Below, in pieces: positions 8,404 to 15,878 of a DNA stretch of 64,000 bases. The stretch lies in IMG/VR virus record IMGVR_UViG_3300050158_000039, positions 28,621-92,620 of that record. One strand, written 5' to 3'. Both the position numbers and the translations under genes were made by a program. Origin of the DNA: a virus. The stretch's first letter is position 1, and every line of letters starts with the position of its first letter. The notes beneath the pieces are model-generated. The model saw only the letters and a program-made list of their open reading frames with translations, did no database searches and had not been told where the DNA came from.

Positions 8404-8531
8404 TAGTCAGAGAGGGAATCGAACCCCCGCTAGTCATGAGTAATATGAAGTAACTCTTTGTCTACGCAACGCTTACGCGAGACAAAAACGACCAGAGATA
8501 GTTTTCTGTGCTGCCACTACACTATCTGACT
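8404..8531 (-). ncRNA. YrlA-like stalk RNA copy A (tRNA order, stalk inserted after the D arm)
   Basis: Acceptor AGTCAGA/TCTGACT, D arm, T arm GGGGG-TTCGATT-CCCTC; motif GTTGCGTAGACAAAGAGTTACTTC at 8447-8470. Confidence 0.7.
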
Positions 8532-8540
8532 AATGAGAGA

Positions 8541-8709
8541 TTGGTGTGCCTTGCAAGTACTACATATGCAAGCCTTCTTGGGAAATTATTCACGGCCGTC
8601 CCGGTTGTCTACAACACATGGTCTAACTAGATGCCCCGCCCAGTCGGTTAGTTTGGGACTCACAGAAGTTAATTACTCTTCCACTTTCGCTAGGTGTGTC
8701 ACACACCAA
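8541..8709 (-). ncRNA. Putative structured RNA, about 170 nt
   Basis: No ORF; ends complementary (TTGGTGTG/CACACCAA); internal hairpins. Confidence 0.45.
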
Positions 8710-8715
8710 TATCAG

Positions 8716-8787
8716 TGCGGTTGGCTGGAGTTTAACCAGCATCCCCTCCCCTCGATGGGAGTGCTCTTTACATTAAGCTACAACCGC
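8716..8787 (-). ncRNA. Non-canonical tRNA-like RNA (6-nt anticodon loop ATCGAG)
   Basis: GCGGTTG/CAACCGC acceptor, D arm, CTCCC/GGGAG stem, T loop TTAAACT. Confidence 0.55.
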
Positions 8788-8792
8788 ATGGA

Positions 8793-8912
8793 AACACGAG
8801 TCAAAACGAGAACAGGTTGATTACTGCGGGACTTGAACCCGCAAATGATCGAGTATGAGTCGATTGCTTTTACCAATTTAGCGAAGTAACTGTTCACCTA
8901 CGCAACGTGTTA
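8793..8912 (-). ncRNA. YrlA-like stalk RNA copy B containing a complete tRNA(CAT) body (8818-8891)
   Basis: The AGTTACT of the motif (8883-8906) is the 5' acceptor strand of a cloverleaf with ATCGA-CTCATAC-TCGAT; leader GAACAG can pair with trailer CTGTTC. Confidence 0.7.
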
Positions 8913-8987
8913 GTGAAGATTGTGGGGATCGAACCCACCTCATACACCCTGTCGGATGCTCCATCTCCTTGATGGTTATGATCTTCA
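8913..8987 (-). ncRNA. tRNA-like RNA with normal acceptor and T arm but non-canonical D and anticodon arms
   Basis: TGAAGAT/ATCTTCA; GTGGG-TTCGATC-CCCAC; anticodon-position hairpin has a 4-nt loop (GACA). Confidence 0.5.
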
Positions 8988-9146
8988 TGACGATACAGCA
9001 CGCCGTCCATCCCGCATCTCGTTTGAGCGATCCTACTTGTTAGCTACACAAGGGTGTTCGCACTGCTGTTTGGGACCGGCACGGGTGCAGAGGCACGAGA
9101 TTGCACCACCTCACTTTTGTATCGGTTATTGGTTTGTTGAGATAAA

Positions 9147-9274
9147 GTTGCACAAGTTTTTGTTTGGACTTTCGCGTCTACCAATTTCGCCACCTAATGT
9201 TGCCATTAGGGCAGGACTCGAACCTGCACAAGTTTGCACTTAATAGTTTTTGAAGAAGTCTTGCACTACGCAAC
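9147..9274 (-). ncRNA. YrlA-like stalk RNA copy C (circularly permuted tRNA-like head, Leu-type D arm)
   Basis: Order is T arm, CCTAAT-GGCAAC-ATTAGG closed acceptor, D arm GCGAAATTGGTAGACGC; closed by GTTGC/GCAAC; motif at 9252-9274. Confidence 0.75.
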
Positions 9275-9281
9275 AACAAAT

Positions 9282-9358
9282 TGGTACTCCTGGGGGGATT
9301 TGAACCCCTCGTTCCCACCTTGAAAGGGTGATGTCCTAACCAGTTAGACGACAGGAGC
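9282..9358 (-). tRNA. tRNA-Glu(TTC)
   Basis: Cloverleaf, loop CTTTCAA, CCA end. Confidence 0.9.
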
Positions 9359-9363
9359 AGAGT

Positions 9364-9508
9364 AGCAGAGATCAGAGCGTAAAGGCACTTTTTTGAGGCG
9401 GCTGTCCTACCACTAGACGACATCCGATACAATTTAACATCGGAAGGTGGGAATCGAACCCACGTAAGCTGCTTGGGTATGAAGAAATCCTTCACTACGC
9501 AACTGCTA
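9364..9508 (-). ncRNA. YrlA-like stalk RNA copy D (circularly permuted head, Glu/Asp-type D arm)
   Basis: T arm GTGGG/CCCAC precedes the closed acceptor and D arm GTC-TAGTGGTAG-GAC; motif at 9481-9503; TGAAGG/CCTTTA pairing. Confidence 0.7.
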
Positions 9509-9514
9509 AAACAG

Positions 9515-9543
9515 AGTATATGTTAACAATGAGATAATGTCAA
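9515..9543 (-). promoter_or_regulatory. sigma70-type promoter
   Basis: TTGACA-17 nt-TATACT; predicted start near 9508, just before copy D. Confidence 0.8.
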
Positions 9544-9666
9544 CAAGACTAGGGTTTTCACACCCTCACGGGGACCTTCCCCAATTCCCCACAAAACACA
9601 CATAATGCGCTTTGTGGGGAATATTTGGATCGAACAAATGATGAACGTCTTGCTTACGCAACATTG
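9535..9666 (-). ncRNA. YrlA-like stalk RNA copy E (divergent)
   Basis: GTTGCGTAAGCAAGACGTTC, T-arm-like ATTTG-TTCGATC-CAAAT, long hairpin TTCCCCACAAA/TTTGTGGGGAA, CAAGAC/GTCTTG closure. Confidence 0.55.
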
Positions 9667-9685
9667 TCAAATTCTGGTTGGTGAG

Positions 9686-13927: not shown

Positions 13928-14125
13928 ATTCACTAATCTCAACCTCCGAGCTCCGGTTTCCTGACCGCCCTTTCACGGGTAGTCCGCCGTACCGCCGAAG
14001 ACTTTCCTATTTGCTCAGAATAGGCGCCGGTTTTGCTTGGACTGAGCGTTCCTCGCGTTGTGCCGACCTTTTTCAAACTAAGTAACATCCATTTGATGCT
14101 GTATCAGAGGTTGAGATTAGCGAAT
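13928..14125 (-). ncRNA. 198-nt structured RNA with a 19-bp terminal stem
   Basis: ATTCGCTAATCTCAACCTC / GAGGTTGAGATTAGTGAAT; starts at the predicted TSS of a sigma70 promoter; no ORF. Confidence 0.65.
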
Positions 14126-14131
14126 GATTTC

Positions 14132-14160
14132 ATTGTATTCTAACCCGGTCTTTCGGTCAA
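14132..14160 (-). promoter_or_regulatory. sigma70-type promoter
   Basis: TTGACC-17 nt-TACAAT. Confidence 0.75.
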
Positions 14161-14171
14161 CAGGGTTAAAT

Positions 14172-14254
14172 TGGTGTAGGTGGTAGGAATCGAACCTACT
14201 CAGCCAAAGGCCACACGTTTACAGCGTGCTTATCTCTCCAAGGATGGCACCTAC
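14172..14254 (-). tRNA. tRNA-Tyr(GTA), second copy with atypical D arm
   Basis: GCACG-CTGTAAA-CGTGT, variable arm, CCA. Confidence 0.7.
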
Positions 14255-14267
14255 ATTGTTTCTCTCT

Positions 14268-14340
14268 GCGAACCCGACCGGAATCGAACCGGCAAATCCA
14301 CTATCGTTGGGCGCGCGCATGTCCCAGCGTCAACGGGCTC
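14268..14340 (-). pseudogene. Degenerate tRNA-like sequence
   Basis: GAGCCCG/CGGGTTC acceptor and GCCGG-TTCGATT-CCGGT T arm; D and anticodon arms do not fold canonically. Confidence 0.45.
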
Positions 14341-14346
14341 ATTGTT

Positions 14347-14421
14347 TGGCGAGGTGTACGGGACTCGAACCCGTTTGCCCTGATAGACAGTCAAGGATAA
14401 TAACCCATATATCAACACCCC
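14347..14421 (-). tRNA. tRNA-Asp(GTC)
   Basis: CTTGA-CTGTCTA-TCAGG, G73 followed by CCA. Confidence 0.82.
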
Positions 14422-14574
14422 ATTGTTCATTGTGTTACCTCACATTTCGTTCTCTGGCCAGATTACTTGAAATGCTACACCGGTTTGTTCAAATATCCTC
14501 CGGTCAGAGCCTGGGTTTCTGGCTTACTGTGACGACGGGAGCTAAATCCGCCGCTGCTTTCAGCCGCACACAAT

Positions 14575-14650
14575 TGGCGACGTAGAAGGGACTCGAACCC
14601 TCGTAAACCTCTTAGACAGAGAGGTGCATTAGCCGCTATGCTACTACGCC
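14575..14650 (-). tRNA. tRNA-Asp(GTC), second copy
   Basis: CCTCT-CTGTCTA-AGAGG, G73 followed by CCA. Confidence 0.88.
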
Positions 14651-15543
14651 ATTATACTTTCACCATACAGCTCACAAACTTTACTATGCAATTGAGATGG
14701 ATGTGTGATCACATCCCCTTCAACTATGCATTGCGGTGTTGCTCGCGTATTGCACCAAAAAGCGTTTCCTTGAATTACAAGGCTTGGACGCAAATTGATT
14801 GCTTGGTGGTAGTTGTTGCAGTTCAAACTACCACTAATTATCTGCTTTAACCCCAACGTTGACAACCGCTGCCAATGTTCGTCTGCATAAACAATTCCTT
14901 GATTATGTAGGATCGGATCTGATAACGTCAACAGCAGAGAAGGGTTTGTGTTGAGAAGCTCACACAACGCTTGTACACGCGCTAGCGTGCTTTGCTGTGA
15001 GCTTTGCTTGCCTGCAACTACAAACAATCCATGTCCGTTTAACGAGCACGCTGCTGTACGTACTGCTACACCGTTGGTATTAACCAATGAATAGACTGTT
15101 GCAATTTTGTTCCACACAACATCTGGATTGCGTAGACAGTGTTGCATCCACTCACCGTGACCTGCTTGCTGTTCCGACTGAACCAGCTGCCATTTGTAAT
15201 GGTTTGTATCAGGGAACGCAATCTTACTCACACCGTCAGGCCAGAATTCAACACCAATCTCGTCAGTCACATGACTTGTCAGATTAATCAGTGTTTTTTC
15301 AACCCAATGAAAAAGATCATTAGTCGGACCATTCACACGGTTGATATGATCAATTAGCTGTGCGATGCATTGGATGCTTGCAGGACGATTTGCATAGCCC
15401 GTCAGCATCATTAACGCTGATCCCATTGTTTGATTGTACGGTGGAGCAACTAGTGCGATCATGTCTGCAGATTGTTGCGACACGCGCGGTATTGAACCGT
15501 TGACGTACTTCCAAACTAGGAGAAGTGCCTCTGCATCTGTCAC
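14644..15543 (-). CDS. Hypothetical protein inserted in the tRNA array
   Basis: Start set at GTG 15543 after a GAGGAAAGG RBS (the track start lies inside tRNA-Arg); 299 aa; the stop overlaps the tRNA-Asp 5' end. Confidence 0.6.
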   Translation of the reverse strand: MTDAEALLLVWKYVNGSIPRVSQQSADMIALVAPPYNQTMGSALMMLTGYANRPASIQCIAQLIDHINRVNGPTNDLFHWVEKTLINLTSHVTDEIGVEFWPDGVSKIAFPDTNHYKWQLVQSEQQAGHGEWMQHCLRNPDVVWNKIATVYSLVNTNGVAVRTAACSLNGHGLFVVAGKQSSQQSTLARVQALCELLNTNPSLLLTLSDPILHNQGIVYADEHWQRLSTLGLKQIISGSLNCNNYHQAINLRPSLVIQGNAFWCNTRATPQCIVEGDVITHPSQLHSKVCELYGESIMA

Positions 15544-15568
15544 GTTGACCTTTCCTCGTGTGTATCTG

Positions 15569-15641
15569 ACCCTCGCACAGGATTCGAACCCGTATTCCAA
15601 CCTTCGTAGGGTTGTATATTATCCAGTTATATGAGCGAGAG
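15569..15641 (-). tRNA. tRNA-Arg(ACG)
   Basis: CAACC-CTACGAA-GGTTG; CCA not encoded. Confidence 0.8.
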
Positions 15642-15643
15642 AT

Positions 15644-15745
15644 TGGATGAAAGCGTGTGCTATTACCCTACATCCCGAATCGAACGGGCAGGCATTACAG
15701 TTACGGACCATCCGACTAAGCACACAGCGCTGTAACTACTTTCAT
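15644..15745 (-). ncRNA. CCA-ended tRNA-like RNA with non-canonical core
   Basis: ATGAAAG/CTTTCAT-CCA; CCCG-TTCGATT-CGGG; crossing helices AGTTAC/GTAACT and GTGTGCT/AGCACAC. Confidence 0.55.
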
Positions 15746-15748
15746 TTG

Positions 15749-15878
15749 TGGAGTTTCCGGGAATCGAACCGCGGTCTAGTCGTTTCACATACGAAGTAAC
15801 TCTACGTTTACGCAGCACTTTCGTGAGTCAAAATCAACTTGAGTATTGTTTCTGTGCTATCCATTACACTAAAACTCC
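15749..15878 (-). ncRNA. YrlA-like stalk RNA copy G (tRNA order, stalk after the D arm, anticodon-like loop GTG)
   Basis: GGAGTTT/AAACTCC acceptor; D arm GTGT-AATGGATA-GCAC; motif GCTGCGTAAACGTAGAGTTACTTC at 15793-15816; TCGT-ATGTGAA-ACGA arm. Confidence 0.65.

What the first reader, a model, noticed from the sequence alone, without database searches (positions are those of the whole stretch)
8404..15878. Seven-copy family of stalk-plus-tRNA-head RNAs (YrlA/Y-RNA-like) dispersed in the tRNA array
Seen: a conserved minus-strand motif G(T/C)TGCGTA(G/A)-N5-7-core at 8447-8470, 8883-8906, 9252-9274, 9481-9503, 9643-9662, 10181-10205 and 15793-15816. The core is AGTTACTTC in four copies, ACTTCTTC or ATTTCTTC in two, and ACGTTC in one. 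It has a complementary partner strand with compensatory changes: AGTT-AC-TTC/GAA-AACT, GACT-TC-TTC/GAA-AGTC and AGTT-AC-TTC/GAA-AGCT (same 2-nt bulge); the variable segment pairs as ACAAAG/TTTTGT, TGAAGG/CCTTTA, CGAAA/TTTCG and GAACAG/CTGTTC. Each stalk carries a different tRNA-like head. Known: bacterial YrlA Y RNAs join a Ro60/Rsr-binding bulged helix to a permuted tRNA-like domain and occur in some phages; my recollection is that they contain a similar GUUACUUC run (unverified). Inference: an expanded, structurally diversified set of tRNA-mimic RNAs on a common protein-binding handle. They could act as decoys for anticodon nucleases, as adaptors recruiting Ro60/PNPase/RtcB, or as substrates of the phage RNA ligases. 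No Ro60/TROVE gene is present in this window.
Basis: partly seen in the sequence, partly recalled or inferred. Interest (0 to 1): 0.92.

Follow-up and report, generated by a model that had tools for sequence, protein, structure and literature searches.

The report
Phage Y RNAs scattered among tRNA genes
Seven small RNA genes in this large phage's tRNA cluster share the docking module found on Y RNAs next to Ro60 genes in related phages and in Nocardia. Each carries a different tRNA-derived head, so this is an expanded, rearranged variant of a known RNA class, not a new one.

Summary
All seven minus-strand copies are at the stated coordinates, and two more lie outside the window.

The shared stalk is larger than described:
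- an outer helix P1
- a conserved internal loop (5' N-UGCGUA, 3' GAYUUUNUCU)
- a variable helix P2
- an invariant UUAC-UUC

P1 and P2 covary strongly across 62 copies from about 20 phage contigs.

The Y-RNA reading is supported:
- 17 of 20 motif-bearing phage records encode a TROVE/Ro60 protein, against 0 of 20 controls.
- In at least 13 records, arrays of 2-5 copies sit directly upstream of that gene on the same strand.
- The same handle precedes rsr in Nocardia genomes.
- Rfam's YrlA model gives significant scores that stay below its threshold.

New here:
- the copy number
- the dispersal inside tRNA arrays far from Ro60
- the head topologies, including ordinary-order tRNAs with free acceptor ends and the Ro60 module inserted between the D and anticodon arms

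Caveats:
- This 183-kb record, about half a genome, has no Ro60 gene.
- One related phage has only a 65-residue Ro60 remnant yet keeps three intact copies.
- Expression could not be tested.

Verdict: a new variant of a known kind, of moderate to high interest.

The parts
8404..8531 (-). Copy A. A normal-order tRNA-like RNA (acceptor, D arm, T arm, free acceptor ends) with the handle inserted between the D arm and an anticodon-like arm (UCAU/AUGA, loop AUUACUC). P1 is a mini-hairpin, CGC-GUAA-GCG.
   Evidence: Rfam tRNA 40.4 bits with a long insertion. Motif at 8447-8470. Homologous design in G003 and L162.
8793..8911 (-). Copy B. P1 is AACACG/CGUGUU and P2 is GAACAG/CUGUUC. The head is a complete tRNA(CAU) at 8818-8891 whose 5' acceptor strand is the conserved AGUUACU.
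   Evidence: tRNA 56.9 bits. P1 and P2 found by the partner search. The MFE fold recovers P1 and P2.
9134..9279 (-). Copy C. A circularly permuted, Leu-type tRNA-like head: T arm, acceptor closed by GCAA, D arm. P1 is UUGUUG/CAACAA and P2 is GUGCAAG/CUUGUGC.
   Evidence: Rfam YrlA 21.3 bits over the head. Partner search. Homologue in G011 at L140:930-1083.
9363..9508 (-). Copy D. A permuted tRNA-like head in YrlA order. P1 is UAGCAG/CUGCUA and P2 is UGAAGG/CCUUUA.
   Evidence: Rfam YrlA 20.5 bits over the full model length. Partner search. Homologue in G011 at L140:1180-1318.
9515..9543 (-). Sigma-70-like promoter TTGACA-17-TATACT. It would place the transcription start at about 9508, the first base of copy D's P1. 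It overlaps the 3' end of copy E.
   Evidence: 11 of 12 consensus matches, and the only such site in 8300-10700.
9526..9667 (-). Copy E. P1 is ACAAUG/CAUUGU and P2 is AGCAAGAC/GUCUUGUU. The core is reduced to GUUC. The head is a T-arm-like hairpin plus three further hairpins, so it is not a tRNA.
   Evidence: The MFE fold recovers P1 and P2. A homologous head occurs in L043 at 3950.
10093..10210 (-). Copy F. P1 is AAUAUG/CAUAUU and P2 is CG..GAG/CUC..CG. The head has a T arm only. It follows tRNA-Ser, as do its homologues in G003, G011 and G013.
   Evidence: Covariance model R1, 40.6 bits, E 5e-8, full length with a 57-nt head insertion.
15749..15878 (-). Copy G. The same design as A. P1 is the hairpin CAC-GAAA-GUG. 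The anticodon-like arm is UCGU/ACGA with loop AUGUGAA (GUG).
   Evidence: Rfam tRNA 31.2 bits with an insertion. Sequence read.

Best explanation
These are phage-encoded Y RNAs of the YrlA type.

All copies share one module:
- helix P1
- an asymmetric internal loop (5' N-UGCGUA, 3' GAYUUUNUCU)
- helix P2
- an invariant UUAC followed by UUC, which pairs with GAA or opens an anticodon-like stem

This module is the docking site for a Ro60/Rsr ring protein. The conserved 5' strand is probably read by sequence, as published Ro60-Y RNA work describes.

Each module presents a different tRNA-derived head:
- permuted T/acceptor/D domains (C, D)
- a whole tRNA fused through its acceptor stem (B)
- tRNAs with free ends and the module inserted at the D/anticodon junction (A, G)
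- T-arm-only or multi-hairpin heads (E, F)

The set would let one Ro60 protein be tethered to, or compete for, several tRNA-binding partners.

Shown: the motif, the helices, their covariation, and the genomic link to Ro60 in relatives.
Inferred: Ro60 binding itself, expression, and what the heads recruit.
For: - Motif enrichment in the window.
- The same motif with tRNA-like heads in at least 20 IMG/VR phage contigs.
- TROVE in 17 of 20 of these records and in 7 of 7 complete ones, against 0 of 20 controls. The G011 protein is TROVE plus VWA.
- Arrays of 2-5 copies lie at most about 1 kb upstream of TROVE on the same strand in G001, G004, G005, G006, G008, G009, G010, G011, G012, G015, G016, G018 and G019, and across the record ends in G020.
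- The identical handle occurs twice upstream of rsr in Nocardia.
- Covariation in A2: 86% of cells paired against 58.7% in shuffles (0 of 500); score 0.693 against 0.195, and 0.11-0.16 when slid.
- Partner-swap test: 10.33 against 5.93, sd 1.45, 0 of 20000.
- The YrlA model gives E 8e-7 to 5e-3 on relatives.
- 9 of 62 copies carry the canonical CGAA in place of CGUA. Published Y RNAs have a terminal stem plus an internal bulge with CGAA (PMC12135203) or GNCGAAN0-1G (PMC4201824).
Against: - No TROVE gene in the window or in the whole 183-kb record, and no remnant by tblastn.
- The related phage G003/G014 has only a 65-aa C-terminal Ro60 remnant beside an HNH-like ORF, yet keeps three intact copies. 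The handle can therefore persist without a phage Ro60.
- The Rfam YrlA gathering score is not reached: 20-21 bits here and 31-48 in relatives, against 69.
- No RNA data exist for this phage.
- The covariation alignment was fitted to the model. The partner-swap set was pre-selected for a minimum score.
Confidence: 0.78

Rival explanations
1. Orphan Y RNAs. The RNAs belong to the Y-RNA family, but this phage lineage has lost its Ro60 gene. They would then work through a host Rsr or another protein, or act alone as tRNA-shaped decoys or competitors for tRNA-binding enzymes and anticodon nucleases.
For: - No TROVE in 183 kb.
- G003 shows Ro60 destroyed at the syntenic site with three intact copies retained.
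- All four fragments of the closest subgroup (own record, G003, G013, G014) lack TROVE.
Against: - The record is estimated at only 52% complete.
- All three complete jumbo relatives (G002, G011, G017) encode Ro60 far from most of their copies: about 62 kb in G011, about 90 kb in G002 and over 100 kb in G017.
- Nine well-conserved copies resemble Ro60-bearing G011 more than G003.
Confidence: 0.3
2. Gated or tagged tRNA precursors. Copies A, B and G would mature into working tRNAs. The handle would be a removable or regulatory element that controls their processing, rather than a stable Y RNA.
For: - B is a complete tRNA(CAU) at 56.9 bits.
- A and G have free acceptor ends and 7-nt loops with U33.
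- M. smegmatis YrlA is cleaved by RNase P and receives CCA (PMC4201824).
Against: - Position 37 is a pyrimidine in two of the three A/G-type 7-nt loops.
- In L162 the loop has 10 nt.
- No splice-like or bulge-helix-bulge junction was seen.
- C, D, E, F and the headless copies cannot give tRNAs.
- The handle, not the head, is the conserved part.
Confidence: 0.1
3. A DNA-level or transcription signal (a phage promoter or repeat), or a small self-cleaving ribozyme.
For: A conserved ~25-nt box recurs at the start of several genes. One copy starts at a predicted transcription start.
Against: - Spacer length varies.
- Both helices covary with distant partners.
- Circularly permuted versions have P1 closed by a GNRA loop.
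- No ribozyme family is hit in Rfam.
- The motif is tightly linked to TROVE genes.
Confidence: 0.03

Closest known systems
YrlA-type bacterial Y RNAs (Rfam RF02553; Chen et al. 2014, PMC4201824)
   Same: - A terminal 5'-3' stem, an internal loop with a CG(A/U)A motif on the 5' strand, and a second helix.
- A tRNA-like domain in the order T arm, closed acceptor, D arm (copies C and D).
- In relatives and in Nocardia, the genes lie just upstream of rsr on the same strand.
- Co-transcription of Y RNAs with tRNAs is known for D. radiodurans.
   Different: - Scores stay below Rfam's threshold.
- The loop motif is UGCGUA rather than GNCGAA in most copies.
- There is an extra conserved 3' loop motif and an invariant UUACUUC.
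- At least 9 copies per genome, not 1-4.
- The copies lie in tRNA arrays tens of kb from any Ro60 gene.
- The heads are not limited to the YrlA topology.
Phage Y RNA-like RNAs: mycobacteriophage, CcrColossus and phage G YrlA; Thermus phage phiLo Yrl1/Yrl2 (PMC12135203)
   Same: They are phage-encoded, paired with a phage Ro60, and have a stem-bulge-stem design with a CGAA-type motif. One to several copies lie upstream of the Ro60 gene.
   Different: The published cases have one or two RNAs next to Ro60. Here there are arrays and dispersed copies with diverse tRNA-derived heads, and no Ro60 in the available half-genome.
D. radiodurans Yrn1
   Same: A Y RNA whose tRNA-like arms are arranged differently from YrlA. 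This shows that permutation of the tRNA module occurs within the class.
   Different: It has a different Ro-binding helix, closer to the metazoan one. It has no free acceptor ends with an internal Ro module.
Circularly permuted and split tRNA genes (Cyanidioschyzon, Nanoarchaeum)
   Same: The 3' half of a tRNA precedes the 5' half in copies C and D.
   Different: Those genes are processed through a bulge-helix-bulge junction to give working tRNAs. Here the acceptor is closed by a short loop and the ends form a protein-binding handle.

Membership tests
Y RNA, YrlA type | Reaches the Rfam RF02553 gathering score (69 bits) | tested here: not met
   Own copies C and D score 21.3 and 20.5 bits. Phage relatives score 31-44.5 bits with E down to 8e-7. 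Nocardia rsr-adjacent RNAs with the same handle score 43-48 bits. The last result suggests the model is under-sensitive for this subgroup.
Y RNA, YrlA type | Encoded next to a Ro60/rsr (TROVE) gene on the same strand | tested here: inconclusive
   Met in at least 13 related phage records and in Nocardia. Not met in this record, which has no TROVE in 183 kb and is about 52% complete. In the complete relatives G002, G011 and G017, most copies are also far from TROVE.
Y RNA, YrlA type | A terminal stem formed by the 5' and 3' ends, flanking an internal loop that carries the Ro-binding motif (GNCGAAN0-1G / CGAA) | tested here: met
   P1, the loop and P2 are supported by covariation. The loop motif is UGCGUA in 48 of 62 copies, UGCGAA in 9 and UGCGCA in 5. 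It is therefore a one-base variant of the published motif in most copies.
Y RNA, YrlA type | A tRNA-like domain with T arm, D arm and an acceptor stem closed by a loop | tested here: met
   Met for C and D (alignments). The other copies carry different tRNA-derived or reduced heads.
Y RNA, YrlA type | Bound by Ro60/Rsr in vivo or in vitro | not testable with these tools
   No RNA or RIP data exist. Only DNA runs from leaf-litter metagenomes hold the sequence.
Functional tRNA (for copies A, B, G) | A canonical cloverleaf with a 5-bp anticodon stem, a 7-nt loop, U33 and a purine at position 37 | tested here: inconclusive
   B passes as a tRNA (56.9 bits). A and G have a 4-bp stem plus a U-C mismatch, with U33 present. 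Position 37 is U in A and A in G. The Rfam alignment of A's anticodon arm is spurious.

The most novel reading that the evidence does not exclude
The A/G-type molecules would be a new class of 'Ro60-tagged tRNAs'. They would be tRNAs with normal free acceptor ends and an anticodon-like arm, able to be CCA-tailed or even charged, while carrying an internal Ro60 docking module at the D/anticodon junction. They would physically couple a Ro60 (and PNPase) machine to synthetases, elongation factors, the ribosome or host anticodon nucleases. The whole expanded set would be a phage counter-defence toolkit. It would keep working with host Rsr, or without Ro60, in lineages that lost the phage gene.
Probability: 0.12. 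Interest if true: 0.85.

Novelty: new variant of a known kind. Interest (0 to 1): 0.6.

Why it matters
Y RNAs and Ro60 are conserved from bacteria to humans, yet the role of the tRNA-like domain of bacterial Y RNAs is still open.

This phage group offers a natural experiment: one conserved Ro60 handle carrying many different tRNA-derived heads, in several circular permutations. In at least one relative the RNAs are retained after the Ro60 gene was destroyed.

It also defines the handle more fully than the published 5' motif does, adding an outer helix, a two-sided conserved loop and UUACUUC. The current Rfam model misses this subgroup, including chromosomal Nocardia Y RNAs. Many phage 'odd tRNAs' and unannotated gaps in tRNA arrays may therefore be Y RNAs.

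Tried and rejected
- Rfam at gathering threshold finds no family for any copy.
- BLASTN of 8300-10400 against GenBank phages finds only a tRNA-Glu match and no relative.
- The loose 16-base pattern in IMG/VR gave mostly chance hits in coding sequence. Adding a T-loop anchor separated the true family.
- An unanchored complementarity scan was too permissive (matched 11.85 against 10.64), so I replaced it with anchored and partner-swap tests.
- Model R1, built from headless copies, finds F, B and A but not C, D or G, because the long heads are penalised.
- I first argued that the Ro60 neighbourhood (the capsid module) is missing from this fragment. That argument is withdrawn: gp23 is present at G000:144343-145590 and the region is rearranged relative to G011.
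- Searches for overlapping contigs beyond the left end of the record found nothing.
- A pattern aimed at more A/G-type copies returned only two chance coding hits besides the known ones.
- No RNA sequencing run holds the sequence.
- The promoter, repeat, ribozyme and intron readings are rejected, as set out under the rival explanations.
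Full report
**Setting**

The window is part of a 183-kb IMG/VR virus record, G000, estimated at 52% complete. It holds 38 tRNA genes, a two-piece tmRNA and a GOLLD RNA. A T4 Rnl1-like RNA ligase lies at 20355-21491. DNA runs that hold the sequence come from leaf-litter metagenomes, and no RNA run holds it.

**Observation**

GYTGCGTAR occurs 10 times against 1.67 expected, and 0 of 100 shuffles reach 10. Seven hits are the reported minus-strand copies. Each is followed after 5-9 nt by AGTTACTTC (four copies), GACTTCTTC, GATTTCTTC or GACGTTC. The other three hits lack the core and look like chance matches in coding sequence.

Two more headless copies lie outside the window, at G000:695-767 and G000:1083-1156 on the minus strand. 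They score 61.3 and 59.4 bits with my model.

**A family, not a local repeat**

An IMG/VR scan with the motif plus a T-loop anchor returned 15 phage contigs, several with 2-4 copies. Looser scans of those and related records showed arrays of up to five copies. GenBank phages hold no close relative.

**Anatomy**

- Outer helix P1. The 5-7 nt before an invariant G and one junction base pair with the nt that follow a second conserved motif.
- Internal loop. The 5' side is N-UGCGUA: U 57, G 61, C 58, G 59, U 48 (A 9, C 5) and A 60, each out of 62. The 3' side is G-A-Y-U-U-U-N-U-C-U.
- The base after UGCGUA pairs with the first base of the 3' segment. It is G:C in 53 of the 59 distinct aligned copies and A:U in window copies E and G.
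- Helix P2 has 6-9 variable pairs and ends in an invariant G.
- UUAC-UUC follows, invariant in all 62 hits. That invariance is partly a result of how the hits were selected.
- UUC pairs with a GAA that follows the D arm, or it opens an anticodon-like stem.

**Covariation**

- RNAalifold on 14 headless copies predicts P1 and P2. Ten of 13 pairs show compensatory changes.
- Model R1, built from these copies, finds 62 copies in the family loci.
- On that alignment, 86.0% of cells are paired against 58.7% in shuffles (0 of 500). Cells changed on both sides number 231 against 76. The covariation score is 0.693 against 0.195, and 0.11-0.16 when partners are slid. The alignment is model-fitted, which favours the structure.
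- As an independent check I swapped 5' and 3' strands among 43 copies under the same search rules. Own partners score 10.33 and foreign partners 5.93 (sd 1.45), with 0 of 20000 permutations reaching the observed mean. In 34 of 43 copies, the own partner is the single best. The copies in this test had been pre-selected for a minimum score.
In copy A, TTTTTGT is the 3' loop motif. In copy F, the P2 partner is CTCTCCG.

**Link to Ro60**

- TROVE (PF05731) is found in 17 of 20 motif-bearing records, and in 7 of 7 that are at least 90% complete.
- It is found in 0 of 20 control virus records taken from the chance pattern hits, 7 of which are complete.
- The G011 protein is TROVE plus VWA, 571 aa.
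- In G001, G004, G005, G006, G008, G009, G010, G011, G012, G015, G016, G018 and G019, the copies lie at most about 1 kb upstream of the TROVE gene on the same strand. In G020 they do so across the record ends. In G007 they lie about 3.4 kb upstream.
- In the complete jumbo phages G002 and G017, and for most G011 copies, the RNAs sit in tRNA arrays far from TROVE.
- A scan of 185,579 prokaryote genomes found the pattern in two Nocardia genomes and one 330-kb MAG contig.
- In Nocardia, two RNAs with the same P1, loop, P2, (G/A)GUUACUUC and 3' motif lie directly upstream of an rsr homologue. All three genomes encode TROVE.

**Relation to YrlA**

Rfam's YrlA model scores 20-21 bits on copies C and D, 31-44.5 bits on phage relatives and 43-48 bits on the Nocardia RNAs. 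The E-values are significant, but all scores are below the 69-bit threshold.

Published YrlA RNAs carry GNCGAAN0-1G near the 5' end (PMC4201824). Phage phiLo Yrl1 and Yrl2 carry CGAA in an internal bulge between two stems (PMC12135203). Here the motif is CGUA in most copies and CGAA in 9 of 62. The M. smegmatis YrlA 5' probe in PMC4201824 implies UUACCACUUC in that RNA, close to the UUACUUC found here.

**Heads**

- C and D have the YrlA order: T arm, closed acceptor, D arm.
- B is a whole tRNA(CAU) whose acceptor 5' strand is the conserved AGUUACU.
- F has only a T arm. E has a T-arm-like hairpin plus three further hairpins. Both types recur in other phages.
- A and G, with homologues in G003/G014 and in the MAG contig L162, are normal-order tRNAs with free acceptor ends.
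- In these A/G-type RNAs, P1 is a short hairpin: CGC-GUAA-GCG, CAC-GAAA-GUG or CAUCC-UCA-GGAUG.
- The handle sits between the D arm and an anticodon-like arm whose inner pairs covary: UCAU/AUGA, UCGU/ACGA, UCUC/GAGA and UCGC/GCGA.
- Their loops keep U33, but position 37 is a pyrimidine in two of three. I therefore doubt that they decode.
- A TTGACA-17-TATACT site at 9543-9515 would start transcription at about the first base of D.

**Does this phage have Ro60?**

No TROVE gene or remnant is present in the 183 kb.

G000 37 kb down to 0.2 kb is collinear with G011 2 to 35 kb. The capsid-side region is rearranged, so position alone does not predict where a Ro60 gene would be.

G003 is collinear with G011 up to about 103 kb. 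At the Ro60 slot it carries an HNH-like ORF and only the last 65 residues of Ro60 (61.5% identity, E 2e-21). It still has three copies with intact handles.

The handle can therefore outlive the phage Ro60 gene. I put the chance that this phage encodes Ro60 in its missing half at roughly one half.

**Mechanism**

The evidence supports a Ro60-docking handle presenting varied tRNA-shaped heads.

By analogy with RYPER complexes and phiLo, the RNAs would tether Ro60 to PNPase or other partners. Alternatively, they would occupy tRNA-binding enzymes. Which partners, and whether any head is charged or cleaved, is inference only.

**Verdict**

This is a real feature and a member-level extension of a known class. 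Its new features are copy number, dispersal, head topologies, a fuller handle definition, and retention in a Ro60-less relative.

Noticed in passing
L139:695-767 (-) and L139:1083-1156 (-), i.e. G000:695-767 and G000:1083-1156, outside the window: Two further headless copies of the same handle, YrlB-like small hairpins, in another tRNA cluster at the left end of the record. They score 61.3 and 59.4 bits with model R1.
   Followed up: yes
L156:8708-10027 (G003:68708-70027): In a related phage the Ro60 slot holds an HNH-type ORF of 233 aa. A 74-aa ORF there matches only the last 65 residues of Ro60 (61.5% identity), just upstream of the gp23-like capsid gene. The Ro60 gene was apparently destroyed while three Y-like RNAs were kept.
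   Followed up: partly
L163:1090-1420, and L161 and L164 (Nocardia): Chromosomal rsr-adjacent Y RNAs in Nocardia carry the same handle but score only 43-48 bits with Rfam YrlA (threshold 69). The curated model appears to miss this subgroup.
   Followed up: partly
window:27476-27910 (-): A GOLLD RNA, 218.8 bits and full length, next to tRNA-Pro and tRNA-Gly.
   Followed up: no
window:53895-54245 (+): A two-piece (permuted) tmRNA of betaproteobacterial type (116.9 and 125.2 bits; tag ANDAFYGEMRLAA). This may hint at the host group.
   Followed up: no
window:25544-25619 (-): A well-formed tRNA with a CUA anticodon (76.6 bits). ARAGORN labels it Pyl. It is a likely amber suppressor.
   Followed up: no
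window:8540-8715 and 8912-9133 (-): Two unassigned non-coding stretches between copies A, B and C. The second ends in a T-arm-like hairpin (GUGGG UUCGAUC CCCAC, about 8922-8945). No Rfam family matches either.
   Followed up: no
window:20355-21491 (-) and 7519-7956 (-): A T4 Rnl1-type RNA ligase (RNA_lig_T4_1 plus T4_Rnl1_C) lies next to the tRNA cluster, and a YqeY-like protein lies within it.
   Followed up: no
L162:7190-7345 (+), a 330-kb contig of a Pseudobdellovibrionaceae MAG: An A/G-type tRNA with an embedded handle and an encoded ACCA end. TROVE lies on the same contig at about 185 kb. The contig may be a jumbo phage binned as a bacterium.
   Followed up: partly
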